Positions 35,040-54,319 of a DNA stretch of 64,000 bases are shown piece after piece (within the stretch, counting starts at the first letter, position 1; each line of letters opens with the position of its first letter). Under the pieces are notes generated by a model. The model was given only the letters and a program-made list of their open reading frames with translations, searched no databases and was not told where the DNA came from. The DNA is taken from positions 682 to 64,681 of the forward strand of contig CALBJW010000011.1 in NCBI GenBank assembly GCA_937893145.1, written 5' to 3'. The position numbers were made by a program, and so were the translations under genes. The stretch is from an uncultured Prevotellaceae bacterium. Its GTDB lineage: Bacteria; Bacteroidota; Bacteroidia; Bacteroidales; Bacteroidaceae.

Positions 35040-38000
35040 CTTCTACAACCTTAAATAATAAGGAGTGTGTACACATACGAAATGCCCGTATATTCTTATG
35101 TATCTTTGCAAAATCCCCTTTCTTATTTTCTTCCAATATGCATAGTCTTAAATGATTCCTCGCGTAAAAGAATATCCTGTTCATACTTTTCTAAAGAATA
35201 TAACTTATAGAAAACCATTTGTTCAATTGTTAAATCAATTTTAGTATCATCTTTGTATCTATGACCATAAAATGCCATTGATCCATCATCGCGTTTGGTA
35301 ATTTGTTCTAGTATAAATGTCATCATCGGCTCTGATTTATATGACACATAAAATCCTCCAATGGTTGCATTTACGATGTTTTTAGACTGTTCACATAAGA
35401 AATATTGCCTTGTTCCATTAAGGGTGGGGTGATAAACTGTCATCATGTCATCTTTTATATCAGTTACAATTCCGTAGGCATTTCTTATGTATATGATATC
35501 ATTTATTTTATGTATTGACACATTAGTTAAAGGATCGATTGCATGGTATAAAAGATTTCTCTTCTCACCATTTGCCAACATAACACTACATGATTTCTGA
35601 AGCACATCATTACTTATTACTTTGCATGCACCAAAAAACATAGAATACACATAATCCCCTTCTTTTAACCTTTCATAATACCTACTTATTTGAATTTGTC
35701 TATTAAGGTTCCTTACGCTTGACTCTGTTAGGGAAAAAAGTTGAGAATCGACTTCTGTATCAAAATGAATATCACTTTCTTGTATTTCTTTAATGAATCT
35801 TGAAGGATATTTGTTTTGGTTTATGGAACTATTAAAGCCTTCAGAATCTGTTAAAATAAGATTCTTCTCAGCTCTTGTTATTGCAACATACATCAATCTT
35901 CGTTCCTCTTCTTCTCCTGCATTTTCTCTTTCTACTATTGATCTATAGTTTGGTAATATACCTTCAGACAACCCAACAACAAATACATAAGGAAATTCTA
36001 GTCCTTTAGACTGATGAATTGTCATCAGTTTTACTTTTCCTGTTACTGTTCTCGAATCCTCATCAATATACAAAGCAATATCTTGTAGATAGTTATTCAA
36101 GTTTCTTTCACCCATCCACTCATTATCATACTCATTTGTTGAGTGAAGTAACTCTTTTATATTATCTAGTTTATCTGTATCTTCATCTTTTTTATATTCA
36201 CTCATTAAGTTTGTCTTCTTCAACACAACATCAAGTATATCTGTAACTCTTTGCGTTTTTGACATAACGGATAGTTCATCAATAAGAGTAATAAAGTTTA
36301 CGAGTTCTTTTTTGGCACCAAATAAATTATCTATATGTTTCTTTAATGTGGCATATAAAGATAGATTCTCTTGCTTTGACATTTCTTTCAATTTATTCAT
36401 AGAAGCCTTACCAAACTTACGAGATGGCGTATTTATAACTCTTTCAAAAGACAAATCATCTCCAAAGGCAACAAGTTTAAGATATGCTATACAATCTTTT
36501 ATCTCTTTTCTCTCATAGAATCTTATACCACCCCAGATTACATAGGGTATGCCGTGTTTAACGAACTGCTGCTCAAAAGAACGAGAAATATATGATGCTC
36601 TAAACATTACTGCAACATCTTCATAATTCTTCTGCTTATCAACAATATTCAATATTTGCTTTGCAACCCATTCCGCCTCTAACTCTTCACTTTTGTCATG
36701 ATGATATACTATTCTTTCATCACTTTTGTTTTGAGTAAACAAATCTTTATGAACTCGATTTTTATTGTTACTAATAACGGAATTTGCAACTGATAAAATC
36801 TTTGAATTTGATCTATAATTTTCGTTGAGAATTATATCCGTATCGGCCTTGAAGTTGACAAACAAAGAAGGATCTGCCCCACGCCACTCATAGATTGCTT
36901 GATCTGGGTCTCCAACGACCATAAGATTACCACATTTTTCGCATAGAAACTTAATGATTTGCCAATCAGTTTTATTACAATCTTGAACTTCATCAACCAT
37001 TATATAATTAAACTTCTCTTGCCAATATTGTCTAACATCATCATGCTTTTCTAAAAGATATAATGCCATATAAATTATATCCGTAAAATCAATTGAGAAG
37101 TTCTTTAGCTGTATTTTTATATATTCAGTAAATTTATCTTGACCAGAATTATCAGCATTAGGGAGGAAATGTTCCACATAATAAGTGGAAGATTTAGCTA
37201 ACGAAATTTCTTTTAAGAATTGTTTTACAGTTAATGCGGATCTGTCCAAACCTAACAATTTCATTACATCCTTAGCATATGTTACACTATCCTCAGTATC
37301 CAAAATATTGAAATTATCAGGCCATCCTAATCTAAATATATCACGTCTCAATACTTTTACACAAAAGCTATGTATTGTACAAATGTTTTCAAAAACCCTA
37401 TACTGTCCATGAAGAATTCTATTTATTCGGAAACGCATCTCGTTTGCTGCCTTATTAGTAAAAGTTAGGCACAGTACATTAGACGGATTAATGCCAATCT
37501 CTGACACTAAATAGGCATAACGACTTGTTAGAACTTTTGTTTTTCCTGTTCCAGCTCCTGCAATTACCCTAACTTTACCTTCTGTGCTTCCAACAGCTTT
37601 TGCTTGTTGTTGATTTAAGGTTTCAAAAAATCCTTTATTTCTTGACAATATGTTTGGTTGAGCAGGTTCTTCCAACATATCTTTCATTGCAAATATACTA
37701 TCCATACTTTTATTTTTACTAACCGCAAAATTACAACATTTTATTGAAAGAACAAATAAAAAGCATTAAAAAACATTTCTCATATCTCAATCTCATCACA
37801 AACAGTAACTCTGTCTTTGAGCATTATTCTCCACGAAGAATATTATAGACGATCACTAGTCGCACACGAGAGCGAAAAAATAAATGAAGTTTGATAGTTT
37901 GGAGAGAAATTACAATTATTGAACCTGAAATATAATAACATCCACATTCATACTAAAATAGATGATTGCACATAATAACCAAAAGATTCTAAGGAGACAT

Positions 38001-39430
38001 ACAAGGACACTAACTTAAAACCCACATCTGAGCAGACTTGAAATGGATTCGCTGTTACCGCCTGAGGCAAAGGCGGCGCCACCGACATCAAGAACTGCCA
38101 GATGCTATGCAAAATGCATAATAGGATGAAGGGGAATAGGTAAGAATCAAGGCAATAGGCAGACTGTCTGCTTGGGTGGTCAGAATAGTTAGGGAGCAAT
38201 CGATAAAAATGTTTTTCTGTAATTATCATAAAAAATATTACAGATAAATTTTTACATTAACATAATTTTTGTATATTTGCAAACTATACTTTTCAAGTAT
38301 ATAATAAATATTAACAGATTATAATAAATCATTCGAATCAAGAATTGTATTTATGAATAATCATTTTGTATGTTTACTCACCATGTAAAATCTAATATAT
38401 GAATTGTTCAAAAGATAGTAAGAAGAAAATTGCTGAAATTCTTAACGCACTAAAAGATCCTTCTTATAAAAAAAAGGATATTCTTAAGTACACTCTTCAA
38501 AATTTGAATTATTACGAACTTGATTTTCTTTACAAGAGAGTTCCTTTAATGTATAAAGGTCTTTTTTCTTTATCGTATCTTGCTCGACATAATTATGAAC
38601 AAATATTTAGCACTTCTATTCAGCCTGTCACGGAAACGATTGATTATATTGGAAAAGAAACCTTCATTATTGTACAACATTATGAATTGCTGAACAAATA
38701 TATTAAGTATCGTGACAAAATTGATAGCTTGGTACTTACAGGCAAATACAAAGACGCCAAAGAATTGCTTAATCAAGTTAATAATACTATTAGCTATTCA
38801 TACTGGGCTGCTTCGTATGAAATCAAAATAGAAAGATTCCTTAATGGACAATCGTCTGCTATAGAATTGCACAATAAGTTATTCTATCGTAACAAAAATA
38901 ACTTATGGGGTAAATTCTGCAATGCCGCATTTTACACAAGTACAAAGGATTATGTGACTGATTTTGAACGTAAATTGTGTTACAATGGTGATAGCCCATA
39001 TTATACAAGGTTAAACAAAATTATTAAGTCTCATTATCTATCTTTTGATGGTATTGACGATGATGAAGGCATGTTTTGTGACATGAACTCATCAATAATT
39101 GACCTTTATAATAATTTCATAAATTATCTATCATGTTTTACTAAACAAATATATCGGGATGATGATTTTAAATACTTCTTGGCTGTACTCAATAAAAAGA
39201 TAAATGATATAAGAATCAAAAATATATTGAACATGACAGATGTTCAATGTCAACATAAAACAGATAATGAAACAAGAAAATCAATTGTTAGAAATTACCT
39301 TACAAGCAATTTCGAAAGCTCCGCTTCTGAAAGTTTAGATTACTTAATCGAACAGCCTTTAGATACAGAAATACTCCTAATATATGTAAAAAGTATAGTT
39401 CTGTTAAAAAAAGAAATAGATGAACCATCA
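35040..39430. other. Low-GC genomic island (two genes) between rsgA and the prophage end
   Basis: There is a visible compositional drop (long A/T runs, AT-rich codon choice) compared with both flanks. The boundaries are approximate. Confidence 0.6.
35123..37705 (-). CDS. SF1A UvrD/PcrA-type helicase (860 aa) with ~220-aa C-terminal extension of repeated Tudor/SH3-like segments
   Basis: Helicase motifs are readable: AGAGTGKT (I), LTFTNKAANEM (Ia), MVDEVQDCN (II), VVGDPDQAIYEWRGA (III), NYRS (IV), TIHQSKGLEFPYVFV (V), YVAITRAEKNL (VI). The tail contains GDYVYSMFFGACKVIS-type beta segments. Confidence 0.8.
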   Translation of the reverse strand: MDSIFAMKDMLEEPAQPNILSRNKGFFETLNQQQAKAVGSTEGKVRVIAGAGTGKTKVLTSRYAYLVSEIGINPSNVLCLTFTNKAANEMRFRINRILHGQYRVFENICTIHSFCVKVLRRDIFRLGWPDNFNILDTEDSVTYAKDVMKLLGLDRSALTVKQFLKEISLAKSSTYYVEHFLPNADNSGQDKFTEYIKIQLKNFSIDFTDIIYMALYLLEKHDDVRQYWQEKFNYIMVDEVQDCNKTDWQIIKFLCEKCGNLMVVGDPDQAIYEWRGADPSLFVNFKADTDIILNENYRSNSKILSVANSVISNNKNRVHKDLFTQNKSDERIVYHHDKSEELEAEWVAKQILNIVDKQKNYEDVAVMFRASYISRSFEQQFVKHGIPYVIWGGIRFYERKEIKDCIAYLKLVAFGDDLSFERVINTPSRKFGKASMNKLKEMSKQENLSLYATLKKHIDNLFGAKKELVNFITLIDELSVMSKTQRVTDILDVVLKKTNLMSEYKKDEDTDKLDNIKELLHSTNEYDNEWMGERNLNNYLQDIALYIDEDSRTVTGKVKLMTIHQSKGLEFPYVFVVGLSEGILPNYRSIVERENAGEEEERRLMYVAITRAEKNLILTDSEGFNSSINQNKYPSRFIKEIQESDIHFDTEVDSQLFSLTESSVRNLNRQIQISRYYERLKEGDYVYSMFFGACKVISNDVLQKSCSVMLANGEKRNLLYHAIDPLTNVSIHKINDIIYIRNAYGIVTDIKDDMMTVYHPTLNGTRQYFLCEQSKNIVNATIGGFYVSYKSEPMMTFILEQITKRDDGSMAFYGHRYKDDTKIDLTIEQMVFYKLYSLEKYEQDILLREESFKTMHIGRK

Positions 39431-39460
39431 CAAGTATGGGGCATAAAACGAAGCGGTTAG
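38399..39460 (+). CDS. Orphan 353-aa helical protein, apparently 3'-truncated by the prophage insertion
   Basis: A long AT-rich ORF with Asn/Lys/Tyr-rich helical sequence and no motif I recognise. The last ~10 codons (..SQVWGIKRSG*) lie in G-rich prophage-type sequence. Confidence 0.55.
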   Translation: MNCSKDSKKKIAEILNALKDPSYKKKDILKYTLQNLNYYELDFLYKRVPLMYKGLFSLSYLARHNYEQIFSTSIQPVTETIDYIGKETFIIVQHYELLNKYIKYRDKIDSLVLTGKYKDAKELLNQVNNTISYSYWAASYEIKIERFLNGQSSAIELHNKLFYRNKNNLWGKFCNAAFYTSTKDYVTDFERKLCYNGDSPYYTRLNKIIKSHYLSFDGIDDDEGMFCDMNSSIIDLYNNFINYLSCFTKQIYRDDDFKYFLAVLNKKINDIRIKNILNMTDVQCQHKTDNETRKSIVRNYLTSNFESSASESLDYLIEQPLDTEILLIYVKSIVLLKKEIDEPSQVWGIKRSG

Positions 39461-39553
39461 AGGAGTTGGAGGCTGTGGAATCGGCAAGGAGTTGGATAAC
39501 ATGGAGTTAGGTGGAGGGTGAGGATGGAGGTCGAGAAAAACGAAATGGTTCGG

Positions 39554-39584
39554 GGGCTTACATTGGTTTACGTTGGGCTTACAT
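39554..39584 (+). repeat. Three tandem GGKYTTACRT units (10-11 bp period)
   Basis: gggcttacat t ggtttacgt t gggcttacat. Further single copies lie at 39618-39626, 39776-39785 and 40461-40471. Confidence 0.75.
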
Positions 39585-39846
39585 CGGGGTGCTAATGGGA
39601 TGCAAAGACGGAGGGATGGTTTACATGGGGGACTTGGAGAGGTGCAATATGGGTGGGTGATTCTGAGGATCTGGCGGTCGGTGTGACCGCTTTTTTTGTT
39701 GGGTTTTGGAATGTTTAACAATGCGAATATATTCCATATAATGATTATTTGGTATATTTGCAGTCAAATAACATAGGGTTTACATAGGGTATAGGACGGA
39801 TTTGATGGAATATACAGGGGTGTGAACCTGGATAAATGACAGGAAT

Positions 39847-40074
39847 ATGGCAAAGGTAATACATGTGCATCTGATAGGAAAAGGCAAAGACTTCTATTTC
39901 AGTAGTATAACTGCGGTTTTCTCGGTACTGGAAGCTGAGGAGATAGGCGTGAGTAAGAGTTATCTGCTTCATGCAGGATTAAGCGGTGGTGGAACGGTGA
40001 TGACAAAGAAAGCGATGATCAAGCAAGGGACGCTTGTATCGGGAGGTAGGAGCAAGAGGCCTAAAGGGCGTTGA
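39847..40074 (+). CDS. Hypothetical 75-aa protein in the prophage left arm
   Basis: This is the only plus-strand ORF in the C-poor arm. A TATATTTG -7 box lies at 39753-39760. Sequence MAKVIHVHLIGKGKDFYFSSITAVFSVLEAEEIGVSKSYL... with a basic tail. A terminator-like hairpin lies downstream. Confidence 0.5.
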   Translation: MAKVIHVHLIGKGKDFYFSSITAVFSVLEAEEIGVSKSYLLHAGLSGGGTVMTKKAMIKQGTLVSGGRSKRPKGR

Positions 40075-40121
40075 AATGGCGTTAGAACGCTGTTTTTGGG
40101 GCGTTTAGAGCGGTTTTAGAG

Positions 40122-40149
40122 CCTCACGGTGGGTTGTGGGGAACGGTGG
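40122..40149 (+). repeat. Prophage intergenic hairpin repeat, copy 0 (degenerate)
   Basis: cctcacggtgggttgtggggaacggtgg. Confidence 0.5.
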
Positions 40150-40182
40150 TGGTGACAGCCAAGGACGGCTGTCAGAAAAAAG

Positions 40183-40238
40183 CAAGATGCGCATCATCTG
40201 GGTTTGTGGCTCAGGTGGTGCGCATCTTGTTTGTTTTT
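40183..40238 (+). terminator. Terminator-like long hairpin followed by a T-rich tract
   Basis: caagatgcgca ...25-nt loop... tgcgcatcttg gtttgttttt. Confidence 0.5.
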
Positions 40239-40285
40239 GCACACTATTGGGGTATGGTGTGCAATGGAAAGTGTTAAAAAATAGG

Positions 40286-40357
40286 TTAGGGTTACATTTA
40301 GGGTTGCAGTTTAGGGTTACATTTTTTGAAAACTTAGGGTTACATTTAGGGTTACAT
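40286..40357 (+). repeat. Five direct TTAGGGTTACAT 12-mers (3 contiguous + 2 contiguous)
   Basis: Copies start at 40286, 40298 (variant ttagggttgcag), 40311, 40334 and 40346. Confidence 0.9.
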
Positions 40358-40613
40358 TTGGCGATTTTTGGGGGTGCGTAGAAAAGGGGTGTAATGGTCG
40401 GAATATTGGCGTTTGTGCTGAATTTGGGAATATAGAGGGGGATGTATAACCCTATATTTTGGGGTTTACACATTATATTATATATGCGTATGCGTGTGTA
40501 TGTGAGGGTTTTAGGAGGATATGGTATGATAATTTGGGGTTAAAATGGGGTGCGTGCGTGGAAAATGGAGGTGTGTGGGAGGGGGTGTGCGTGTCGGGTG
40601 GTTTTGGTGTGTG

Positions 40614-40641
40614 CCCTCGGGAGAACCCTCGTGAACGGTGG
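40614..40641 (+). repeat. Prophage intergenic hairpin repeat, copy 1
   Basis: ccctcgggagaaccctcgtgaacggtgg. Confidence 0.7.
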
Positions 40642-40675
40642 TGGTGCTACCTGATGGGGATGATGAGGGGGTGTG

Positions 40676-41098
40676 TCAGCCAACCGCAGCAGGAGCGAGT
40701 TCTTCCGCATGGACAGACTCTACCCCTTTTGTTTCTTCGAGTTGTCGTATGCGTTCCTGTGCAGCTCCGAGTTGCATGGAGAGAGATTCATTTCGCTTCT
40801 GTAAATCATTGATCATTGCGAGAAGTTCTGTGAATGAAGCGGAATTGTTGGATTGTAAGGTGGAGTTTGCAGATGTGGTGAGCATTTCGCCTTCTCCAGT
40901 TAGGAGCCAATGAGCACTTAAATTAGGGTATGCATATAGAATCCTTTCAATATTTGATGAGTTGATGCTTTTAGTGATTCCCTTACGCATTTTACCCACT
41001 AAACCAACTGATAAGCCAGCATTGACTGTCATTTGGTTATCGTTTATGCCTGATTTATCCATAAAATATAGCAAGCGTTCTATAAAATTATCGTTCAT
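40676..41098 (-). CDS. Phage repressor (CI-type HTH, Bacteroidales variant) with C-terminal coiled coil
   Basis: MNDNFIERLLYFMDKSGINDNQMTVNAGLSVGLVGKMRKG...YPNLSAHWLLTGEGEM is the typical Bacteroidetes phage-repressor HTH. It is divergent from the early operon. Confidence 0.75.
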   Translation of the reverse strand: MNDNFIERLLYFMDKSGINDNQMTVNAGLSVGLVGKMRKGITKSINSSNIERILYAYPNLSAHWLLTGEGEMLTTSANSTLQSNNSASFTELLAMINDLQKRNESLSMQLGAAQERIRQLEETKGVESVHAEELAPAAVG

Positions 41099-41174
41099 AT
41101 TGAAAAAAAACTATATATTTTATTTGTTATATTGAAAATATTCTATATCTTTGCAACCGAATTAACAATGTTAA
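41097..41174. promoter_or_regulatory. Repressor/early-promoter control region
   Basis: Direct repeats atattgaaaa at 41097 and 41129, a TATCTTTG -7 box at 41146-41153, and the palindrome ttaaca-a-tgttaa at 41162-41174. Confidence 0.5.
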
Positions 41175-41229
41175 CACGCGCCAAATATACAAAAAAGGCG
41201 TGATTTGACATAAAAATAACGGTTAAAAA

Positions 41230-41403
41230 ATGGAAAAAGGTAAAATCAAGCGAATGTTGGACAAGGTTATGTTTGTTCACATGGATGGAGACGAAGAAGT
41301 GGTCTTCACTGTTAGGGATTTTATAGGCAGTATGGTGCTTTGTGTGCTATTGTTGCTTGTAGTAGGATGTGCTGGAACACTGGAGCATCAGTATGGATGG
41401 TAA
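41230..41403 (+). CDS. Small (57 aa) membrane protein, first early gene
   Basis: Below the ORF-track cutoff. Sequence MEKGKIKRMLDKVMFVHMDGDEEVVFTVRDFIGSMVLCVLLLLVVGCAGTLEHQYGW. It lies about 80 nt downstream of the TATCTTTG -7 box at 41146. Confidence 0.45.
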   Translation: MEKGKIKRMLDKVMFVHMDGDEEVVFTVRDFIGSMVLCVLLLLVVGCAGTLEHQYGW

Positions 41404-41407
41404 TATG

Positions 41408-41435
41408 CCCTACGGAAAAGCGAAGGGAACGGTGG
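41408..41435 (+). repeat. Prophage intergenic hairpin repeat, copy 2
   Basis: ccctacggaaaagcgaagggaacggtgg; starts 4 nt after stop 41403. Confidence 0.8.
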
Positions 41436-41487
41436 TCGCCGAAATCGGCATAGGAAACAGAAAACTATAACTAAAAATGATAAGGAA

Positions 41488-41871
41488 ATGAAAAAGTACA
41501 TTGCGATTGACAAAGAAATGCGTGAGAAGCTGATGAAGATCTTCGGATGCAGCAGAGTATGGGTGTGGAAGGCACTCAATTATGAGAACGACACTCCCAA
41601 GTGCATGAAGATACGCATGGCAGCCTTGAAGATGGGTGGTCATGTGGTGGGTGATGACACCGCGCTGGAAACGAGTTACGAGAGCAGCGAGGGTATCATG
41701 ATTCAGAAGTTCGGTCCGAGAGTGAGGCTGATAGTGGATATTGCCCATGAGGATGGCGAGTATGAGGTGGAGATAGATGGCATGGAATGGCAGAGAGGTA
41801 GTGCTAAGATGAGCATACCTGAGTTCATGAAGATGCAGGAGAGTGTGGACTTGATGGCTAAGAGCTTGTAG
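41488..41871 (+). CDS. Hypothetical early protein (Ner position, possible DNA-binding N-terminus)
   Basis: A 127-aa ORF between the repressor region and the transposase. Function is inferred from position only. Confidence 0.5.
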   Translation: MKKYIAIDKEMREKLMKIFGCSRVWVWKALNYENDTPKCMKIRMAALKMGGHVVGDDTALETSYESSEGIMIQKFGPRVRLIVDIAHEDGEYEVEIDGMEWQRGSAKMSIPEFMKMQESVDLMAKSL

Positions 41872-41929
41872 TGACAAATTAGGAACAGTAAAGCGGTGCG
41901 ACAATGGCGCACCGAAGAGAACAGAAACG

Positions 41930-43981
41930 ATGGAGTATTACGGAAGAATATTGTGTATATCGGCAAATGACCTTACAAGGGTGGGCGCAGATGGCAGTGC
42001 TGCCATCATGAGCGTGTCAAACTATAAGGCAATGTGCCATCGCGGTCAGTTGAACGTGATACGCCAGGGCAAGGGGCTTGGCAACTATGCGCTTGTGGAG
42101 GTTGCCACTCTTCCAAAGAGATTCAAGGATATGGTAACTGAGAGATTCGGTACTGGAGAAGACCACATTCTGAGAGACTGGTTTGAACAGCACTGGTGTG
42201 TGGATGCTAAGGCAAGAGAGTTCTATACAAGATACAGGTTTGTGGATGGCAGCTCTCTCCCTCCAGAGCATGTGATACAATACACTCATGATGCGAGCAC
42301 TCTGAAGGCAGTGATCAGTCTGATGGCAGACACGAAAGCAATGCGCAGAGCCATGCAGGGCGAATCGGTGAACTGGAGCGAAATGGTAGGAGCCTTGAAG
42401 TTCTACCAAGAGCAGTTTGGGCATTCTCTGCCATTGAGTCCGAACCGATTCAAGACAAAGGTGAGGGAGTTCAAGGAAGGCGGTTATGAGGTGCTTATCT
42501 CGAAGAAGTTCAAGAATGACAATTCAAGGAAGGTGAGCTACAAGATAGAACGCTTGATTCTAAGCCTTGACAGTCTGCCAGAGAGACCATTTAACAGTAC
42601 GGTGGCAGAGTTGTATAATGAGTTTGTGATGGGAGCAATACACGTTGTGGATCCAGAGACTGGAGAGGTGTTCAATCCTATCGAGTTCACAGACAAGAAG
42701 GGCAATCCCCTTGTGCTGAGTGAGGCAACCATTGCGAACTATCTGAACAAGCCAAAGAACAAGGCTCTGAGGGCAAAGCTGCATGATGGTCAGTGGGAGT
42801 TCAATAATGAGTACCGACCACACCATCTGAGACAGAGTCCTCAATGGGCATTCTCGAAGCTCAGTGCTGATGACCGTGACCTTCCAAGAAAGATGCACAA
42901 CGGTCAGAGGGTGAAGGCATACTATGTGTATGACGTGGCAAGCGGTTGCGTTGTAGGATATGCTTACAACAGACTGAAGACTGCCGATTTGTTCCTGGAC
43001 TGCATGAGGAACATGTTTCAGACTATAGACAGGAACGGATGGTACATGCCAGCGCAGATAGAGGTGGAGCACCACTTGGTGAACAACTTCGCTGACGGTT
43101 TGATGAAGGCAGGTGTGGTGTTCCCTCTTGTAAGATGGTGTAATCCTGGCAACTCTCAGGAGAAGCGTGCAGAGCACTTGAACAGAGCCAAGAAGTACGG
43201 AACGGAGAAGGAGCTGCAGGTGGGTATCGGAAGATGGTACAGCAGACTGGAGGCTAACCGTCCTAAGTCAGAGAAGGTGTATGATGAGTTCAATGACACC
43301 TACAAGGAGAAGACCTACGACTATGAGGAACTTGTGGCAGACGATGTGAGAGCCATCTATGAGTTCAACCATCAGAAGCATCCTAACCAGAAGCGTTATC
43401 CTGGCATGACTCGCTGGGATGTGCTGGAGAAGATGCAGAATCCAGACCTTGCACCTGTAGATAAGGCGGTACTCTACCGATACATCGGTGAGCATACGGA
43501 AACAAGCATCAGAAGGAACATGTACTGCACGGTGATGTATAACGAGTATGTGTTGCCATCGCCAAGGGAGATTGAGAAGCTGGAGCCAAGAAACATGAAG
43601 GTGGATGCTTACTATCTACCAAATGAGGATGGAAAGATTGGCGAGGTCTATCTGTATCAGAATGGTGCTTACATAGCGAAGTGCGAACAAGCTGTAAGGT
43701 ACAATGAGGCTACTGCAGAGCAGACTGAGGCAGATTTGGAAGCTTACACTGAGCAGAGCAAATATGTGAGCCAGTTCGATAAGATGATGAAGGATGAGAA
43801 GGTGAAGAAGGTGGTGGTGATGAAGAAGGAAGAGGTGGATGAGATTATCTCGGAAGCAGAGTGTCAAAGCCACAGCACAAATCCATCTGCAGGACTGATG
43901 GGAACGATGGCAGATGAGGATGATCTGAGCGAATGGATGGACGCTGGTGCTTGGAAAGGAAGAGGAAGGGAGTCGATATAG
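41930..43981 (+). CDS. Mu-type DDE transposase (MuA-like, rve core)
   Basis: 683 aa. Central region ...SADDRDLPRKMHNGQRVKAYYVYDVASGCVVGYAY...IEVEHHLVNNF fits a DDE/RNase-H-like core. It is followed directly by a MuB-like ATPase. Confidence 0.75.
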   Translation: MEYYGRILCISANDLTRVGADGSAAIMSVSNYKAMCHRGQLNVIRQGKGLGNYALVEVATLPKRFKDMVTERFGTGEDHILRDWFEQHWCVDAKAREFYTRYRFVDGSSLPPEHVIQYTHDASTLKAVISLMADTKAMRRAMQGESVNWSEMVGALKFYQEQFGHSLPLSPNRFKTKVREFKEGGYEVLISKKFKNDNSRKVSYKIERLILSLDSLPERPFNSTVAELYNEFVMGAIHVVDPETGEVFNPIEFTDKKGNPLVLSEATIANYLNKPKNKALRAKLHDGQWEFNNEYRPHHLRQSPQWAFSKLSADDRDLPRKMHNGQRVKAYYVYDVASGCVVGYAYNRLKTADLFLDCMRNMFQTIDRNGWYMPAQIEVEHHLVNNFADGLMKAGVVFPLVRWCNPGNSQEKRAEHLNRAKKYGTEKELQVGIGRWYSRLEANRPKSEKVYDEFNDTYKEKTYDYEELVADDVRAIYEFNHQKHPNQKRYPGMTRWDVLEKMQNPDLAPVDKAVLYRYIGEHTETSIRRNMYCTVMYNEYVLPSPREIEKLEPRNMKVDAYYLPNEDGKIGEVYLYQNGAYIAKCEQAVRYNEATAEQTEADLEAYTEQSKYVSQFDKMMKDEKVKKVVVMKKEEVDEIISEAECQSHSTNPSAGLMGTMADEDDLSEWMDAGAWKGRGRESI

Positions 43982-43983
43982 AA

Positions 43984-44011
43984 CCCTGCGGAAAAGCGCA
44001 GTGGACGGTGG
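43984..44011 (+). repeat. Prophage intergenic hairpin repeat, copy 3
   Basis: ccctgcggaaaagcgcagtggacggtgg; starts 2 nt after the transposase stop. Confidence 0.8.
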
Positions 44012-44066
44012 CTGCCGAACACGGCATTAAAATAGGATTAGAAAACAATTAAAATTTAATAAGACA

Positions 44067-44939
44067 ATGGAGATTACAAAGGAAATCAAGGAGCGTATAA
44101 TCGGTGCAATCATGATGGATCGTGAGAATTATACGAGTGACAACAAACATGCGGTGAGCTTGGGTATCAGCGCGAGTGTTTACAATGCCATCAAGAAGGG
44201 CAACTATGAGAAGCAGGTGAGCGATGCTAACTGGATATGCATTGCAAGAAGGCTTGGCGTGGTACTGAAGAAGGAAATGGAATGGAAGGCAGCAGAGACT
44301 CCTACTTTCGTGTTCGTGAGCGAACAGCTGGAAGTGTGCCAGCAGAGCGGACTGAGTGCCATGCTCTGTGATATGCCAAACATCGGCAAGACATTCACGG
44401 CAAGAGCATACGTGAGAACACACAAGAACTCGGTGTATATCGACTGCAGTCAGGTGAAGACAAAAGTGAGACTGATACATAAGATTGCCAAGGAGTTTGG
44501 TGTGGGTGTGAATGGTCGATACACAGATGTGTATGAGGACTTGGTGGCATATCTCAGAACCATTGACAGCCCTCTGGTCATTCTTGATGAAGCAGGAGAT
44601 CTCCAGTATGAGGCATTCTTGGAACTGAAGGCTCTTTGGAATGCTACAGAACGAGCTTGTGCATGGTACATGATGGGTGCTGACGGATTGAAGGCAAAGA
44701 TACAGCAAGCCATCGAGAGAAAGAAGGTGGGATATACGGAAATGCTCAGTCGATTCGGTGACACTTACAGTAGGGTGACTCCTGATGACGCTAAGGAAAG
44801 GATGAAGTTCCTGAAGGCACAAGCTGCTATCGTGGCGAAGGTGAATGCTCCTGAAGGTACGGATGTGATGCAGATTGTGCATCTGAGCGGTGGAGGTTTG
44901 AGAAGGGTTTACACTGAGATTGAGAAACTGAGGAGATAG
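44067..44939 (+). CDS. MuB-like AAA+ transposition ATPase
   Basis: N-terminal HTH-like region, Walker A DMPNIGKTFTA, Walker B LVILDEAGDL. It sits immediately after the transposase. Confidence 0.75.
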   Translation: MEITKEIKERIIGAIMMDRENYTSDNKHAVSLGISASVYNAIKKGNYEKQVSDANWICIARRLGVVLKKEMEWKAAETPTFVFVSEQLEVCQQSGLSAMLCDMPNIGKTFTARAYVRTHKNSVYIDCSQVKTKVRLIHKIAKEFGVGVNGRYTDVYEDLVAYLRTIDSPLVILDEAGDLQYEAFLELKALWNATERACAWYMMGADGLKAKIQQAIERKKVGYTEMLSRFGDTYSRVTPDDAKERMKFLKAQAAIVAKVNAPEGTDVMQIVHLSGGGLRRVYTEIEKLRR

Positions 44940-44948
44940 ATGATAAGA

Positions 44949-44977
44949 CCCTGCAGCAAAACTGCAGGGCACAGTGG
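44949..44977 (+). repeat. Prophage intergenic hairpin repeat, copy 4
   Basis: ccctgcagcaaaactgcagggcacagtgg; starts 9 nt after the MuB-like stop. Confidence 0.8.
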
Positions 44978-44982
44978 CGAGA

Positions 44983-45213
44983 ATGGAACATAAAGATTAT
45001 AAACCTGGGACGCGGTTCCTGTTCTTGGTGGACTACTTTGAGGCAAGCGGAATCCTTGATGACTGGATGGAGGGTGACTGGAAGTGCGATTTGAGAATGA
45101 GGCGTGCTAAGACACCTAAGCGTGTGGTGGTGGAAGTGGAGGATGTGATGATGGCATACAGGATTCATCAGTGGCATCCGAATGCAAAGGTAGCGATACA
45201 AGAACCGAAGTAA
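44983..45213 (+). CDS. Hypothetical early protein (76 aa)
   Basis: The ORF-track entry starts at a GTG (44974) inside the intergenic repeat. I prefer the ATG at 44983 (MEHKDYKPGTRFLF...). Confidence 0.5.
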   Translation: MEHKDYKPGTRFLFLVDYFEASGILDDWMEGDWKCDLRMRRAKTPKRVVVEVEDVMMAYRIHQWHPNAKVAIQEPK

Positions 45214-45215
45214 TG

Positions 45216-45243
45216 CCCTCGGGAAAACCCTCGGGAACGGTGG
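45216..45243 (+). repeat. Prophage intergenic hairpin repeat, copy 5
   Basis: ccctcgggaaaaccctcgggaacggtgg; starts 2 nt after stop 45213. Confidence 0.8.
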
Positions 45244-45262
45244 TAAACTAAAAAAAGAAACT

Positions 45263-45901
45263 ATGGTAAAGAAGAAAAGAGCATACAGTCCGACGGATGT
45301 GCTGAAGATGAAGCGTCCTTGCTACGAGTTTGATGGTGCTTGGGAGCATAGCATGGGAAAGCCTGCAAAGACTGGTACCTGGATTATATGGGGTCCAAGC
45401 GGTAATGGCAAGAGTTCATTTGTGATGCAGTTGGCTAAATATCTGTGTGGATTCGAGAAGGTCATATATGACAGTCTGGAGGAGAGCACAGGACTGAGTT
45501 TCCAGAAGAGTCTGAAAAGGCACAATATGGGCGATGTGAGCAAGAAACTCATGATTCTTGACCGTGAGAGTGTGGAGAGTCTTAGCGAGCGTCTGAGGAA
45601 GCCTAAAAGCCCAAAGGTGGTGATTATTGACTCGTTTCAGTATTCGGGATTGAACTACAACACTTATATCAGGATGAAGGAGGAGTTCAGTAACAAGCTT
45701 ATCATCTTCATCAGTCATGCTGAAGGACTGAGACCTGCAGGAAGAGCTGCAAAGAAGGTAGAGTATGATGCTGACATAAAGATAAGGGTGGAAGGCTTCA
45801 GAGCGATGTGCAAGAGCCGATTCATGGATAAACCAGGAGTGCCATTTACGGTATGGGAAGAAGGTGCAGCTCGGTACTGGATGGGAAAGGAACAAACTTA
45901 A
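45263..45901 (+). CDS. RecA-fold P-loop ATPase (Sak4/AAA_24-like, inferred)
   Basis: Walker A IIWGPSGNGKSSF and Walker B KVVIIDSFQY; 212 aa. Confidence 0.55.
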   Translation: MVKKKRAYSPTDVLKMKRPCYEFDGAWEHSMGKPAKTGTWIIWGPSGNGKSSFVMQLAKYLCGFEKVIYDSLEESTGLSFQKSLKRHNMGDVSKKLMILDRESVESLSERLRKPKSPKVVIIDSFQYSGLNYNTYIRMKEEFSNKLIIFISHAEGLRPAGRAAKKVEYDADIKIRVEGFRAMCKSRFMDKPGVPFTVWEEGAARYWMGKEQT

Positions 45902-45917
45902 CTAATAATACAGAAAC

Positions 45918-46181
45918 ATGAGTCGAATTAGAAAACAGATGGAAATCACCCCTCCTCAGTATGTACATGGAACTAAACTGAAAGAGGTTCTGTACAGTAA
46001 TAAACACACTTGTCCTTATTGCCACGGAAACGGTTGATTTTGGACTGATAGTGATTCAAGGGGTGAACGTGAAAAGAAAGATTGTACCGTATGTAAAGGA
46101 TGTGGAACTCTTGATGCAGAGGTAACAATCGAGTGGAAACCATCAAAAGAACCAGATGAAATATGCTGGGCACAAGGATAA
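45918..46181 (+). CDS. DnaJ-type double CxxCxGxG zinc-ribbon ORF interrupted by one in-frame TGA (46035-46037): readthrough/recoding candidate or fresh pseudogene
   Basis: Hand translation gives MSRIRKQMEITPPQYVHGTKLKEVLYSNKHTCPYCHGNG-TGA-FWTDSDSRGEREKKDCTVCKGCGTLDAEVTIEWKPSKEPDEICWAQG*. The final TAA is 1 nt before the ATG of the next gene. Confidence 0.45.
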
Positions 46182-46182
46182 T

Positions 46183-46593
46183 ATGGCACAGGAAGTATTT
46201 AATTTTGGATGGTTCTATGGACTGTTCGAGAAATTGCCAGGACTGAAAGATGCTGAAGCTGTCAAGAAGGAAATGGTCAAGAACTTCACTTGGGGCAGGA
46301 CTGACAGTCTGAAGGAAATGAAGAAGGAGGAATATGACAACCTCTGCAAATCTCTGGAGAAACTGGTGGGTCCTACGGACAGGGAGCGGATGGTCAAGGC
46401 TATCAAGCAGAAAAGGAGCATGGTGCTCCATCAGATGCAGTTGTATGGCGTTGATACCGCAAACTGGGATCGAGTGAATGAGTTCTGCAGGAATCCTCGT
46501 ATTACAGGGAAGGAGTTCAGAGAACTGAGTGGTGATGAACTTGATGCTCTTCAGAAGAAGTTGAGGGCAATGAGAAGAAAGAAGGAAGATTAG
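46183..46593 (+). CDS. GemA/gp16-like (DUF1018-type) Mu early protein
   Basis: MAQEVFNFGWFYGLF...TWGRTDSLKEMKKEEYDNLCKSLEKL...GVDTANWDRVNEFC. I place the start at the ATG at 46183 (the track starts at 46156). Confidence 0.55.
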   Translation: MAQEVFNFGWFYGLFEKLPGLKDAEAVKKEMVKNFTWGRTDSLKEMKKEEYDNLCKSLEKLVGPTDRERMVKAIKQKRSMVLHQMQLYGVDTANWDRVNEFCRNPRITGKEFRELSGDELDALQKKLRAMRRKKED

Positions 46594-46604
46594 AAGCCGT
46601 TAAG

Positions 46605-46632
46605 CCCAGCGGAAAAGCGCAGGGAACGGTGG
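46605..46632 (+). repeat. Prophage intergenic hairpin repeat, copy 6
   Basis: cccagcggaaaagcgcagggaacggtgg; starts 11 nt after stop 46593. Confidence 0.8.
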
Positions 46633-46682
46633 TAACAAAACGGCGAGTCGATGACTCTCCGAACATAAACAAAATAAACAAT

Positions 46683-47336
46683 ATGGATAGAAAAGAATTT
46701 TTGAAAGGTCTTACTGCTGAAGAGCGTAAGGAACTGCTTGCTGAAATGGCAGAGCAGGAGAAGAGTGAGAAACTTGCAAGACGCGATGCATACGAGGCAC
46801 TTCGCAGTCAGTTCGTGCATGATGTGGCTATGAAGCTGGAGCCTGTAGTTATGGATGTGAAGGCATTCCGTGACTGGATCGAGGGCGAGAGCAGCACCTT
46901 CAGAACTGTGATGAACGAATATGGTCAACTTCGCAAGGGTGAAGAGCAGGCAAACTTCACTGTTGTTGATGGTGACTGGAAGATTGAGGTTCGCCAGAAC
47001 AAGGTGAAGAGCTTTGATGAGCGTGCTGATATGGCTGCAGAGCGATTGATCGCTTATCTGAAGGACTATGTTGCCAAGAGTGAAAAGGGTGTTGATGACC
47101 CTATGTATCAGTTGGCGATGACTCTTCTTGAACGCAACAAGCAAGGTGATCTCGACTATAAGAGCATCAGCAAGCTGTACGAAATGGAAGACAAGTTTGA
47201 TGATGAGTATCGCGAAATCATGGGATTGTTCCGCGAGAGCAATGTGGTAAACAAGACTGTGATGAACTATTACTTCCACAAGCGTGATGATAACGGTGTG
47301 TGGAGAAGAGTTGAACCAAGTTTCTGCAGGTTGTAA
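46683..47336 (+). CDS. DUF3164-like Mu-family early protein
   Basis: MDRKEFLKGLTAEERKELLAEMAEQEK... The track start (46629) is a GTG inside the intergenic repeat, so I prefer the ATG at 46683. Confidence 0.55.
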   Translation: MDRKEFLKGLTAEERKELLAEMAEQEKSEKLARRDAYEALRSQFVHDVAMKLEPVVMDVKAFRDWIEGESSTFRTVMNEYGQLRKGEEQANFTVVDGDWKIEVRQNKVKSFDERADMAAERLIAYLKDYVAKSEKGVDDPMYQLAMTLLERNKQGDLDYKSISKLYEMEDKFDDEYREIMGLFRESNVVNKTVMNYYFHKRDDNGVWRRVEPSFCRL

Positions 47337-47341
47337 TTTAG

Positions 47342-47370
47342 CCCCTGCTGAAAAGCGCAGGGAACGGTGG
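47342..47370 (+). repeat. Prophage intergenic hairpin repeat, copy 7
   Basis: cccctgctgaaaagcgcagggaacggtgg; starts 5 nt after stop 47336. Confidence 0.8.
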
Positions 47371-47390
47371 TAGAAATATCAAAATAACGT

Positions 47391-47430
47391 AAAAAGTGTG
47401 CTACAGATTAGTTTCTGTGGCACACTTTTT
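47391..47430 (+). terminator. Rho-independent terminator ending the early operon
   Basis: aaaaagtgtgctacag-attagttt-ctgtggcacacttttt. Confidence 0.7.
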
Positions 47431-47451
47431 GGTTAGGTGTGTAAAAGTTAG

Positions 47452-47459
47452 TATCTTTG
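47452..47459 (+). promoter_or_regulatory. -7 box TATCTTTG for the 90-aa Mor-position gene
   Basis: A canonical TAnnTTTG 57 nt upstream of ATG 47516, directly after the terminator. Confidence 0.5.
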
Positions 47460-47515
47460 CGACTGAAAGAGGTGCGCCAAGGATGGTTCATCTGAAAACG
47501 AGGAGGATATAAGGT

Positions 47516-47788
47516 ATGCCACACGGACGAAACAAAGAGCTGATAGCAAAGCGTGATGAAGCACTGTGCCGCCGTTACCACTATTGGACGGAGGTGCAGA
47601 GATTGCGTTTTGATGATGCTCTGAAGCAGCTATCGCAGAATGAGTTCTTCATCAGCGAGGAGAGAATTATGGCTATCGTTCGCAATATGGTGGGCAAGAT
47701 TGAGGGGTTAGATCTTAGTGCTGTGCCAAAAGTGAAGAAACCAAGGCTTTCAGCACGGCAATTAGAACTCTTCGCTGAGACGAACTGA
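47516..47788 (+). CDS. Hypothetical 90-aa protein in the Mor (middle regulator) position
   Basis: It has its own TATCTTTG -7 box (47452-47459) after a strong terminator. Sequence MPHGRNKELIAKRDEALCRRYHYWTEVQRLRFDDALKQL... A regulatory role is positional inference only. Confidence 0.5.
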   Translation: MPHGRNKELIAKRDEALCRRYHYWTEVQRLRFDDALKQLSQNEFFISEERIMAIVRNMVGKIEGLDLSAVPKVKKPRLSARQLELFAETN

Positions 47789-48211
47789 AAAGAATGTCTC
47801 ATATACCTTTATGCCTCCAGGGAGTGGGTAGTATTGGGATTTTTTGCGAATGAGTTGGGGGGAGCTGATGGCAGAACCATCAGGAACGGTGGCACGCCAA
47901 CCATGGAGGAGAGTGATAAGCTTTTGGGAAAGGGCTTGTCGCTCTTGAATTTTATCGGTGGTGGTGGAACCATAGTGTGTGTCGTCGTAGCAGTCGATGG
48001 CGAGACGGACAGAGAATGTTGTTTCGGAGCGTTGCGAGAGGCTGTGAGTGGTTGTCCATTCGGAAACAGTATTGCCTACGAGGACACAAGGGAATGTGAC
48101 TGGGTAGGTGTCTTCTTGTGTTTCGAGTTGACCGTAATCTTCATCTACAAGAGAGAGTTCTGGAAGATTTTGTGCGATGTGATTGATGAGGGGGAGAAGT
48201 ATATGTTCCAT
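47762..48211 (-). CDS. Hypothetical virion/head-tail protein (last gene of the leftward morphogenesis block)
   Basis: A 149-aa ORF coupled to the upstream G-like gene (stop and start are 1 nt apart). It converges on and overlaps 47516-47788 by 27 nt. Confidence 0.5.
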   Translation of the reverse strand: MEHILLPLINHIAQNLPELSLVDEDYGQLETQEDTYPVTFPCVLVGNTVSEWTTTHSLSQRSETTFSVRLAIDCYDDTHYGSTTTDKIQERQALSQKLITLLHGWRATVPDGSAISSPQLIRKKSQYYPLPGGIKVYETFFSVRLSEEF

Positions 48212-48212
48212 A

Positions 48213-48788: not shown

Positions 48789-48900
48789 TGTTTGGTTGGG
48801 AATTAAAAAGTTCGTACATTTGCAGTTAGAAAAAAGATGATGGAGGTAACACGTGCCCAATGGGCTTAGGACCCGGGTTAACGCATTCCACCATCTTTTT

Positions 48901-51611: not shown

Positions 51612-51623
51612 TGTTGTATAGTT

Positions 51624-52049: not shown

Positions 52050-52052
52050 ATA

Positions 52053-54025: not shown

Positions 54026-54049
54026 GACTTTTTATTATGAAATGTGGTG

Positions 54050-54298: not shown

Positions 54299-54319
54299 CA
54301 AAGAAAATACATAATAAAG

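What the first reader, a model, noticed from the sequence alone, without database searches (positions are those of the whole stretch)
35040..39460. Low-GC island: stand-alone UvrD-type helicase with reiterated Tudor-like tail plus a divergent orphan protein whose 3' end is replaced by the prophage
Between rsgA and the prophage edge the composition drops sharply, which is the usual mark of acquired DNA. Only two genes lie here, arranged divergently. One is an 860-aa SF1A helicase with every motif readable. It is followed by about 220 aa containing three beta-rich segments (GDYVYSMFFGACKVIS, INDIIYIRNAYGIVTDI, IGGFYVSYKSEP) that resemble reiterated UvrD/PcrA C-terminal Tudor domains. The other is a 353-aa Asn/Lys/Tyr-rich helical protein with no motif I recognise. 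The last ~10 codons and the stop of that ORF lie in G-rich prophage-type sequence, so the gene appears to have been cut by the transposable-phage insertion. Accessory UvrD-like helicases in such islands recur in anti-phage systems (for example Gabija GajB). No known partner (OLD/TOPRIM ATPase, nuclease) is visible here. If this is a defence or anti-mobile-element module it does not match an architecture I know, and it may have been inactivated by the phage it sits next to.
Basis: partly seen in the sequence, partly recalled or inferred. Interest (0 to 1): 0.65.

Follow-up and report, generated by a model that had tools for sequence, protein, structure and literature searches.

The report
Phage-split Detocs gene beside unrelated helicase
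The "orphan" gene is the first third of the sensor kinase of a known anti-phage system (Detocs), cut by a Mu-like prophage, and the neighbouring PcrA/UvrD-type helicase is an unlinked, horizontally acquired gene rather than its partner.

Summary
Window 35040-39434 is 31% GC against about 45% on both sides. It carries an intact 860-aa SF1A helicase (35123-37705, minus strand) and a divergent 353-aa ORF whose last 7 codons and stop are phage DNA.

The interpretation as a new helicase-plus-orphan defence pair does not hold. The ORF is the first 345 codons of a 1119-aa gene. The intact protein matches PADLOC PDC-M60A (E 6e-53), which is DtcA, the sensor kinase of Detocs. In two prophage-free alleles (94-99% identical DNA), dtcA is followed by dtcB (a receiver) and dtcC (a receiver fused to a PNP ATP nucleosidase).

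Three close alleles have three different upstream neighbours, and the helicase occurs only in the window. A 91-bp relic of a restriction-enzyme gene marks where a type II R-M pair used to lie. None of 78 dtcA loci from other species has a UvrD-type helicase within 10 kb.

The prophage end is exactly at 39435, confirmed by an independent insertion of the same phage.

In the helicase tail, only one degenerate Tudor domain (aa 680-725) is statistically supported. The last 135 aa are known from one other protein cluster but are under purifying selection.

This is a known system that has been naturally disrupted. Interest is low to moderate.

The parts
35040..39434 (.). Low-GC (0.31) acquired segment, the remnant of a variable defence island downstream of rsgA
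   Evidence: Composition. Detocs operons are also low in GC relative to their flanks in most of the Bacteroidales relatives checked (5 of 6 loci; the exception is L011).
35123..37705 (-). Accessory PcrA/UvrD-family SF1A helicase, 860 aa, intact
   Evidence: Pfam UvrD-helicase and UvrD_C. NCBIfam pcrA scores 590 bits, below the equivalog cut-off of 911. The best PDB match is PcrA 1pjr at 7e-129. dN/dS against the 80%-identical homologue is about 0.1.
35531..35668 (-). Degenerate PcrA/UvrD-type Tudor domain (aa 680-725)
   Evidence: A custom Tudor HMM built from 108 repeats in relatives scores 13.0 bits (E 3.5e-6) here and 28.5 bits in P0002. It lies at the orthologous position after the YPSRF motif.
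35126..35530 (-). 135-aa lineage-specific C-terminal extension (aa 726-860) of unknown fold
   Evidence: Shared only with P0002 among 120 relatives. No hit in the word-indexed 5.8-billion-protein search or in JGI metagenomes. dN/dS is 0.115. The single-sequence AF2 model has pLDDT 35.
38054..38143 (+). Relic 3' end (last 29 codons plus stop) of a type II restriction endonuclease gene (GmrSD_N+HNH), with an in-frame stop
   Evidence: It translates to VTA*GKGGATDIKNCQMLCKMHNRMKGNR*, against VTAWSKGGATDIKNCQMLCKMHNRMKGNR* in L002. Homology with L002 and L093 begins at 38053.
38144..38398 (+). dtcA upstream (promoter and leader) region, conserved with the prophage-free alleles
   Evidence: Lies within the 99.4% (L002) and 94% (L093) identity blocks.
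38399..39434 (+). 5' fragment of dtcA (345 codons plus 1 nt of 1119 codons): part of the helical, TPR-like sensor region of the Detocs kinase
   Evidence: 99% identical to residues 1-346 of the 1119-aa P0121. The fragment matches PADLOC PDC-M60A at 3e-9 and the intact protein at 6e-53. The AF2 model of P0121 is all-helical over residues 5-335.
39430..39434 (+). Predicted left copy of a 5-bp target duplication (ACAAG). Not verifiable here.
   Evidence: These are the last 5 host bases before the phage end. The right end of the phage is outside the window.
39435..39460 (+). Phage-derived end of the chimeric ORF (2 nt, 7 codons and the stop)
   Evidence: The alignment with L002 ends at 39434. Phage homology starts at 39435.
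39435..64000 (+). Left 24.6 kb of a Mu-like transposable prophage of about 39 kb. It includes the repressor (40676-41098, minus), transposase (41930-43981), MuB-like protein (44067-44939) and tape measure (59316-63092).
   Evidence: PHROG hits and PhageMin_Tail. The same phage in IMG/VR UViG_3300001598_000098 (39,344 bp) matches from exactly 39435 at 98% identity, with a different host flank.

Best explanation
The island is a remnant of a variable defence island.

The 353-aa ORF is the 5' 31% of dtcA. This gene encodes the sensor histidine kinase of a Detocs (PADLOC PDC-M60) anti-phage two-component system. A Mu-like transposable prophage of about 39 kb inserted after nucleotide 39434 and split the gene.

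In intact alleles the operon is dtcA (1119 aa)-dtcB (149 aa)-dtcC (415 aa). DtcA has a helical sensor region followed by a His-kinase module with invariant H762. DtcB is a stand-alone receiver. DtcC is a receiver fused to a PNP nucleosidase.

According to the published mechanism, DtcA senses infection and autophosphorylates. It passes the phosphate to DtcC, whose PNP domain cleaves ATP and dATP and aborts the infection. DtcB buffers leaky signalling. In this genome the kinase is split, so the system is most likely dead (inferred).

The helicase is a separate, horizontally acquired paralogue of PcrA/UvrD. It occupies the slot where a type II R-M pair lies in a sister allele. It is probably an active 3'-5' DNA helicase or translocase. 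Its RNA-polymerase-binding Tudor domain has degenerated, and it has gained a conserved 135-aa extension. Its biological role is unknown. I consider it an independent accessory or anti-mobile-element cargo gene, not part of Detocs (inferred).
For: - A full HMMER search finds P0121 (1119 aa), 99% identical over residues 1-346, and a family of proteins of about 1100 aa.
- P0121 matches PDC-M60A at 6e-53 over residues 88-1087.
- PDC-M60 calls coincide with Detocs calls on the same proteins (PMC11811056 supplement). The architecture matches the Detocs paper.
- L002 carries dtcA, then dtcB (PDC-M60B, 4e-32), then dtcC (PDC-M60C, 8.5e-99; Response_reg plus PNP_UDP_1). L093 has the same order.
- The window matches L002 at 99.4% over exactly 38053-39434.
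- H762 in the motif STRIRHG is invariant in 26 family members.
- The AF2 model has pLDDT 84. Foldseek matches it to GHKL and histidine kinases: PDK, ZraS and AdeS.
- A 760-aa product identical to P0121 residues 361-1119 exists on a 22.8-kb contig listed under NCBI and ENA, sources it shares with the window's contig.
- The phage end at 39435 is confirmed by an independent insertion.
- The helicase is unlinked: 0 of 78 loci have one, L002 and L093 have different upstream genes, and the helicase homologue L001 has unrelated flanks.
- The helicase is under purifying selection along its whole length.
Against: - dtcB, dtcC and the 3' part of dtcA were not seen in this genome. The window ends inside the prophage, and the DNA of the 22.8-kb contig could not be fetched.
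- Loss of Detocs function is inferred, not measured.
- No context longer than 3 kb exists for the helicase subfamily, so a lost or distant partner cannot be excluded.
- The identity of PDC-M60 and Detocs rests on one paper's supplementary table plus the matching architecture.
Confidence: 0.85

Rival explanations
1. One reading: the helicase and the divergent 353-aa protein form a new two-gene defence module that the phage inactivated.
For: The genes are adjacent, divergent and both low in GC. The helicase hits the PADLOC GajB and RTasHel models.
Against: None of 78 dtcA loci has a UvrD-like helicase within 10 kb. The nearly identical alleles L002 and L093 have other upstream genes, and a restriction-enzyme relic lies between the two genes in the window. 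The second gene belongs to the three-gene Detocs operon.
Confidence: 0.03
2. The helicase is GajB of a Gabija system, or the helicase of a DRT system, whose partner has been lost.
For: PADLOC GajB models score up to 5e-96 and RTasHel scores 1e-108.
Against: There is no OLD/TOPRIM or reverse-transcriptase ORF anywhere between rsgA and the prophage. The protein is much closer to PcrA, UvrD and Rep: NCBIfam pcrA 4e-177 and PDB 1pjr 7e-129, and every PDB chain listed at E<=1e-20 is named PcrA, UvrD/helicase II, Rep, AddA or UvrD/REP helicase, none GajB. Any UvrD-type helicase would hit these broad PADLOC models (inference).
Confidence: 0.05
3. The helicase is simply this organism's housekeeping PcrA/UvrD.
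For: All motifs are intact and dN/dS is about 0.1. Relatives of about 710 aa at about 50% identity sit in housekeeping-like neighbourhoods with normal GC.
Against: The gene is 31.6% GC in a 45% GC genome. It is only about 50% identical to the core-like relatives. The subfamily is known from two protein clusters only. The homologue L001 has unrelated flanks. The gene lies in a slot where a sister allele has R-M genes.
Confidence: 0.1
4. The dtcA-prophage junction is an assembly chimera rather than a real insertion.
For: The contig is metagenome-derived, and the right junction was not seen.
Against: The breakpoint coincides to the base with the phage terminus defined by an independent insertion. 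A matching 3' gene fragment starting 15 codons (45 nt) downstream of the breakpoint is on record from an assembly listed under NCBI and ENA, as the window's contig is.
Confidence: 0.03

Closest known systems
Detocs (dtcA-dtcB-dtcC; PADLOC PDC-M60), Rousset et al. 2023
   Same: The intact alleles have the same three-gene order and domain content. There is a kinase of about 1100 aa with a helical N-terminal sensor, a conserved histidine and a GHKL module. It is followed by a stand-alone receiver and then a receiver fused to a PNP effector. HMM matches to PDC-M60A, B and C are strong.
   Different: This is a Bacteroidales-type, very low-GC version. It is only distantly related in sequence to the studied Vibrio alginolyticus system. 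In the window only the first 345 codons remain next to their promoter, because a Mu-like prophage interrupts the gene.
PcrA / UvrD / Rep (SF1A DNA helicases)
   Same: The full helicase core with all motifs is present. The best PDB match is G. stearothermophilus PcrA. A C-terminal Tudor-type domain lies at the orthologous position.
   Different: The protein scores below all NCBIfam equivalog cut-offs. The Tudor domain is degenerate: relatives carry the consensus H-x-x-F-G-x-G, but here the histidine and the glycine-x-glycine pair are lost (YSMFFGACKV). There is an extra 135-aa extension with no detectable relatives beyond one cluster. The gene is low in GC and lies in a defence-island context.
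Multi-Tudor PcrA-like helicases of gut Bacteroidota and their phages
   Same: Relatives at about 50% identity carry 2-4 tandem Tudor repeats after the core, for example P0047 with four.
   Different: In the window's protein only the first repeat is statistically detectable.
Gabija GajB
   Same: It is a UvrD-like helicase in a defence context, and the PADLOC GajB models hit it.
   Different: There is no GajA partner, and the sequence is far closer to PcrA, UvrD and Rep.
Mu-like transposable phages inserting into host genes
   Same: The phage has a transposase A, a MuB-like protein and a repressor at its left end. The terminus is sharply defined and the target sites are unrelated.
   Different: The target here happens to be an anti-phage gene. 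The terminus reads TATGGGG rather than the Mu-type TG start. The target duplication was not seen.

Membership tests
Detocs (DtcA sensor kinase) | Sequence match to the family profile (PADLOC PDC-M60A, which corresponds to DefenseFinder Detocs) | tested here: met
   The window fragment scores 3e-9. The intact allele P0121 scores 5.9e-53 over residues 88-1087 of the protein against profile positions 110-1125 of 1161.
Detocs (DtcA sensor kinase) | Large protein with an N-terminal helical (TPR-type) sensor and a C-terminal histidine-kinase module with a conserved phospho-accepting histidine | tested here: met
   This holds for the intact allele. The AF2 model has pLDDT 84, is helical over about residues 5-600, and has long helices plus an alpha/beta domain at the C terminus. 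Foldseek matches PDK, ZraS and AdeS kinases at E of about 1e-4. H762 is invariant in 26 sequences. The window's own ORF retains only sensor residues 1-345.
Detocs (operon) | dtcB (stand-alone receiver) and dtcC (receiver plus effector, usually PNP) immediately downstream of dtcA | not testable with these tools
   For this genome the region lies beyond the prophage and outside the window, and the contig carrying the 760-aa 3' fragment could not be fetched. The feature is met in allele L002 (PDC-M60B 4e-32, PDC-M60C 8.5e-99) and allele L093 (dtcB- and dtcC-sized genes immediately downstream, 96% identical in DNA to L002), and in 76 and 66 respectively of 78 other loci.
Detocs (function) | Phage-triggered ATP/dATP nucleosidase activity and abortive infection | not testable with these tools
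   This needs experiments. It is known only for the Vibrio system.
Gabija (GajB) | Adjacent GajA (OLD-family ATPase plus TOPRIM nuclease) | tested here: not met
   There is no other ORF of 60 aa or more outside the helicase gene between 34937 and 38398, apart from one 93-aa ORF overlapping the restriction-enzyme relic.
Gabija (GajB) | Helicase closer to GajB than to housekeeping UvrD-family helicases | tested here: not met
   NCBIfam pcrA scores 590 bits. The PDB hits at E<=1e-20 are PcrA, UvrD, Rep, UvrD1 and AddA; none is named GajB.
PcrA/UvrD/Rep SF1A helicases | UvrD-helicase and UvrD_C domains with the conserved helicase motifs (GAGTGKT, DEVQD, GDPDQAIYEWRGA, QSKGLEF, VAITRAE) | tested here: met
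PcrA/UvrD/Rep SF1A helicases | Orthology to PcrA, UvrD or Rep (NCBIfam equivalog cut-offs) | tested here: not met
   Scores are 590 against 911 (pcrA), 471 against 1144 (uvrD) and 471 against 951 (rep).
   One copy is supported (aa 680-725, E 3.5e-6, custom HMM). The second is not significant. The third is not detected. No PcrA/UvrD Tudor family was among the tail's Pfam matches. The AF2 model of the tail is unusable.
Mu-like transposable prophage | Transposase A, MuB-type ATPase and repressor at the left end; the same terminus at unrelated insertion sites | tested here: met
Mu-like transposable prophage | Short (5-bp) target-site duplication | not testable with these tools
   The right end lies outside the window. 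The predicted duplicated sequence is ACAAG.

The most novel reading that the evidence does not exclude
The helicase may be a stand-alone anti-mobile-element immunity helicase. It has a degenerate Tudor domain and a 135-aa extension that is conserved under purifying selection and known from only two protein clusters. It took over a defence-island slot previously held by an R-M system. A second, weaker novel reading is that the transposable phage gains from inserting into and disabling Detocs.
Probability: 0.12. Interest if true: 0.5.

Novelty: new member of a known kind. Interest (0 to 1): 0.25.

Why it matters
This removes a false lead. The supposed novel helicase-orphan module is a known Detocs operon split by a prophage, lying next to an unrelated helicase.

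What remains of value is modest:
- It is a clean natural example of a transposable phage insertionally inactivating an anti-phage system.
- Defence genes immediately upstream of a Detocs cassette turn over rapidly. Three nearly identical alleles have three different neighbours, with breakpoints inside an R-M gene.
- There is a rare PcrA-like helicase variant whose conserved C-terminal extension has no known relatives.

Tried and rejected
- The word-indexed protein search with the 353-aa ORF found nothing. The exhaustive HMMER search was needed.
- Exact-protein look-ups of the two window ORFs, of RsgA with two alternative starts, and of the 760-aa fragment were not on record.
- The genome scan with the truncated ORF found nothing. 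It succeeded with a family alignment.
- The helicase tail found no relatives in the word-indexed search or in JGI metagenomes. It had no PADLOC hit and no meaningful Pfam hit.
- The single-sequence AF2 model of the tail was unusable, with pLDDT 35.
- My visual impression that the tail resembles the tails of the 905-920-aa relatives was not supported (phmmer and jackhmmer).
- Rfam found nothing meaningful in 34500-42000. The only hit, n00280, reflects helicase coding similarity and is below threshold.
- No repeats flank the helicase segment.
- An attempt to find an empty site through the neighbouring SulP gene failed. The contigs were too short or the gene order differed.
- A search of viral contigs for the dtcA sequence just beyond the insertion site found nothing.
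- A sequence search of PDB with the DtcA profile gave only a marginal hit to the YycG catalytic (ATP-binding) domain. The fold search was needed.

Full report
**1. Observation**

The region is as described.
- GC falls from about 0.45-0.51 to about 0.30 between roughly 35000 and 39430, then returns to about 0.45. Computed over the whole blocks, GC is 0.451 for 1-34936, 0.309 for 35040-39434 and 0.457 for 39435-64000.
- The only long ORFs in the low-GC block are 35123-37705(-), 860 aa, and 38399-39460(+), 353 aa. They are divergent and 693 bp apart.
- The upstream neighbour is rsgA (Pfam RsgA_GTPase, 1e-55).
- The downstream neighbour is a Mu-like transposable prophage. It encodes a repressor (40676-41098), a transposase (41930-43981; phrog_310, 9e-47), a MuB-like protein (44067-44939; phrog_296, 4e-38) and a tape-measure protein (59316-63092).

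**2. The '353-aa orphan' is a truncated dtcA**

The ORF has no Pfam, NCBIfam or PHROG hit. It has no word-index homologue. It does have a weak PADLOC hit to PDC-M60A, a profile of 1161 positions.

An exhaustive HMMER search of 1.84 billion representative proteins returned 59 relatives, most of them 1095-1180 aa long. The top hit is P0121 (1119 aa), 99% identical over residues 1-346. P0121 continues ...EPSQ-DASILQY..., where the window reads ...EPSQ-VWGIKRSG*.

The intact P0121 matches PDC-M60A at 5.9e-53 across residues 88-1087. PADLOC's PDC-M60 and DefenseFinder's Detocs call the same proteins in Bacillus cereus genomes (PMC11811056 and its supplement).

The Detocs paper (bioRxiv 10.1101/2023.01.24.525353) describes three components:
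- DtcA, a sensor kinase with N-terminal TPRs and an essential histidine.
- DtcB, a stand-alone receiver proposed to act as a phosphate buffer.
- DtcC, a receiver fused to a PNP domain that cleaves ATP and dATP and causes abortive infection.

**3. Prophage-free alleles**

P0121 is encoded on L002, a 10.6-kb Logan contig. Its gene order is as follows:
- type II methyltransferase, 273-1412
- type II restriction enzyme (GmrSD_N plus HNH), 1415-2575
- dtcA, 2831-6190
- a 149-aa receiver, 6187-6636 (PDC-M60B, 3.8e-32)
- a 415-aa Response_reg plus PNP_UDP_1 protein, 6614-7861 (PDC-M60C, 8.5e-99)
- SoFic, 8130-9233

L002 positions 2485-3866 equal window 38053-39434 at 99.4% identity, and nothing else in the window matches L002.

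At the right edge the alignment ends after ...CCATCACAAG. L002 continues ATGCAAGC, whereas the window continues TATGGGGCATAAAACG. The host-derived part of the ORF is therefore 345 codons plus 1 nt. The phage supplies 2 nt, 7 codons and the stop.

At the left edge the homology starts inside the 3' end of the restriction-enzyme gene. Window 38054-38143 translates to VTA*GKGGATDIKNCQMLCKMHNRMKGNR*, against VTAWSKGGATDIKNCQMLCKMHNRMKGNR* in L002. This is a 91-bp gene relic with an in-frame stop.

A second allele, L093 (protein P0197, about 95% identical), also has dtcA-dtcB-dtcC. It matches L002 from L002 position 2382 onward. Upstream it carries yet another gene, a 359-aa ORF on the minus strand with no Pfam hit.

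So three nearly identical dtcA alleles have three different upstream neighbours, and two independent breakpoints lie within the restriction-enzyme gene. The helicase is present only in the window.

**4. The other half of the gene**

The 90%-identity cluster of P0121 contains four proteins:
- P0121 itself.
- The window's 353-aa product, from the 68,282-bp contig.
- P0197.
- A 760-aa product (sources NCBI and ENA, 22.8-kb contig) whose residues 2-760 are identical to P0121 residues 361-1119.

The 760-aa product is what a gene caller would report for the 3' part of a split dtcA. Its DNA could not be fetched. Assigning it to the same genome as the window is therefore an inference.

**5. The phage end**

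A 19-mer from the junction occurs once in IMG/VR, in UViG_3300001598_000098 (39,344 bp). From its position 99 onward that contig matches window 39435-40343 at 98% identity. The preceding 98 bp are unrelated host DNA.

The phage terminus is therefore exactly at 39435, and the phage is no longer than about 39.2 kb. The window holds 24.6 kb of it, so the right junction and the target duplication (predicted ACAAG) are out of reach.

**6. Family-level checks on DtcA**

In an alignment of 26 full-length members, H762 (motif LSTRIRHG) and several C-terminal residues are invariant or nearly so.

The AF2 model of P0121 built with this alignment is confident (pLDDT 84.4). It shows a helical solenoid to about residue 600, then long helices, then a C-terminal alpha/beta domain. 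Foldseek against PDB returns pyruvate dehydrogenase kinases and the bacterial histidine kinases ZraS and AdeS, at E of about 1e-4 to 1e-3. The TM scores are low, as expected for a multidomain query. I read this as support for a GHKL/His-kinase module, not as proof.

The phage breakpoint falls in the loop after helix 323-335. The window's product is therefore a partial sensor domain without the kinase.

**7. Linkage test**

A scan of one genome per GTDB species with the family alignment gave 78 loci, mostly Bacteroidota. I ran tblastn against these loci, each with up to 10 kb of flank on either side. It found dtcB in 76, dtcC in 66, and a homologue of the window's helicase in 0. RsgA, the methyltransferase and the restriction enzyme were also absent, and SoFic appeared in 3 loci.

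Detocs therefore moves as a three-gene cassette with variable neighbours. In five of the six closest Bacteroidales loci checked, the operon is much lower in GC than its flanks (0.28-0.34 against 0.37-0.49); L011 is the exception.

**8. The helicase**

It is a complete SF1A helicase.
- It matches Pfam UvrD-helicase and UvrD_C.
- NCBIfam pcrA gives 4e-177, but 590 bits is below the equivalog cut-off of 911.
- The best PDB matches are PcrA 1pjr (7e-129), then UvrD and Rep. No chain named GajB appears at E<=1e-20.
- The PADLOC GajB and RTasHel hits look like what any UvrD-type helicase would give against such broad models (my inference). No GajA or reverse-transcriptase ORF is present.

The closest relative is P0002, at 80% identity and 842 aa. 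Its 3-kb contig L001 matches the window only within the coding region.

All other relatives are about 50% identical and mostly about 710 aa long. One of them, P0059, lies among housekeeping-type genes and has normal GC.

Many relatives end in one Tudor domain with the signature GDxVxHxxFGxGxV. Some carry 2-4 tandem copies.

An HMM built from 108 such repeats detects one copy in the window's protein, at aa 680-725 (13 bits, E 3.5e-6). The same copy in P0002 scores 28.5 bits. The third is not detected.

Residues 726-860 are shared only with P0002.

dN/dS between the two homologues is 0.105 for the core, 0.136 for residues 656-725 and 0.115 for residues 726-860. The extension is therefore a real, constrained protein domain. 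Its fold could not be predicted (pLDDT 35).

**9. Interpretation**

The evidence shows the following:
- The 353-aa ORF is a phage-truncated dtcA.
- Its operon partners in intact alleles are dtcB and dtcC.
- The helicase is not a conserved neighbour.
- The helicase segment lies where R-M genes lie in a sister allele.

I infer the following:
- Detocs is inactive in this lysogen.
- The remaining operon lies beyond the prophage.
- The helicase is an independent accessory gene of unknown role, possibly directed against mobile elements.

Mu-like phages insert with little target specificity (established knowledge). The hit on a defence gene is therefore most simply chance.

**10. Verdict**

The proposed new helicase-partner module is not supported. 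This is a known system (Detocs) in a new, disrupted instance, next to a rare PcrA-like helicase variant. Interest is 0.25.

Noticed in passing
window 38054-38143: A 91-bp relic of the 3' end of a GmrSD_N+HNH restriction-enzyme gene, with an in-frame stop, lies between the helicase and dtcA. A second allele (L093) keeps 194 bp of the same gene. The R-M pair was therefore lost twice, independently.
   Followed up: yes
window 39554-40470: Eight same-strand copies of GGGYTTACA(T) are clustered in the largely non-coding, strongly G-skewed left 1.2 kb of the prophage. Examples are at 39554, 39575, 39776, 40287, 40312, 40335, 40347 and 40462. Fewer than one copy is expected by chance. They are probably transposase or repressor binding sites.
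   Followed up: partly
window 39435-39440: The prophage terminus reads TATGGGG rather than starting with the TG dinucleotide typical of Mu ends. The boundary is fixed to the base by an independent insertion (L092).
   Followed up: partly
window 39847-40074: A small 75-aa ORF inside the phage's left-end region matches phrog_10608 (1e-22, unknown function). The left end is therefore not entirely non-coding.
   Followed up: no
L093 1-1077 (minus strand): A 359-aa ORF, cut by the contig end, replaces the R-M genes upstream of dtcA in this allele. It has no Pfam hit. Its HVHIVVW motif might indicate an HUH/Y1-type transposase, but this is speculative.
   Followed up: partly
window 30185-34936 compared with L089: Gene order differs from a relative whose SulP falls in the same 90%-identity protein cluster. 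In the window rsgA directly follows SulP. In L089 rsgA lies about 8 kb upstream, and SulP is followed by a flavoprotein, fumarase and frr. This points to a rearrangement next to the island.
   Followed up: no
window 1949-9537 (minus strand): Two very large ORFs (976 aa and 1415 aa) have no Pfam hit at E<=1e-3.
   Followed up: no
window 29750-30250: A local GC dip to 0.37 lies around tRNA-Asn (29913-29987, minus strand), just upstream of the glycosyltransferase genes.
   Followed up: no
proteins P0027, P0047, P0056, P0058, P0106 (relatives of the helicase): PcrA-like helicases of gut Bacteroidota carry 2-4 tandem Tudor domains at the C terminus. Others (P0077, P0101) carry a different C-terminal domain of about 250 aa. 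The tail of this helicase clade is highly modular.
   Followed up: partly
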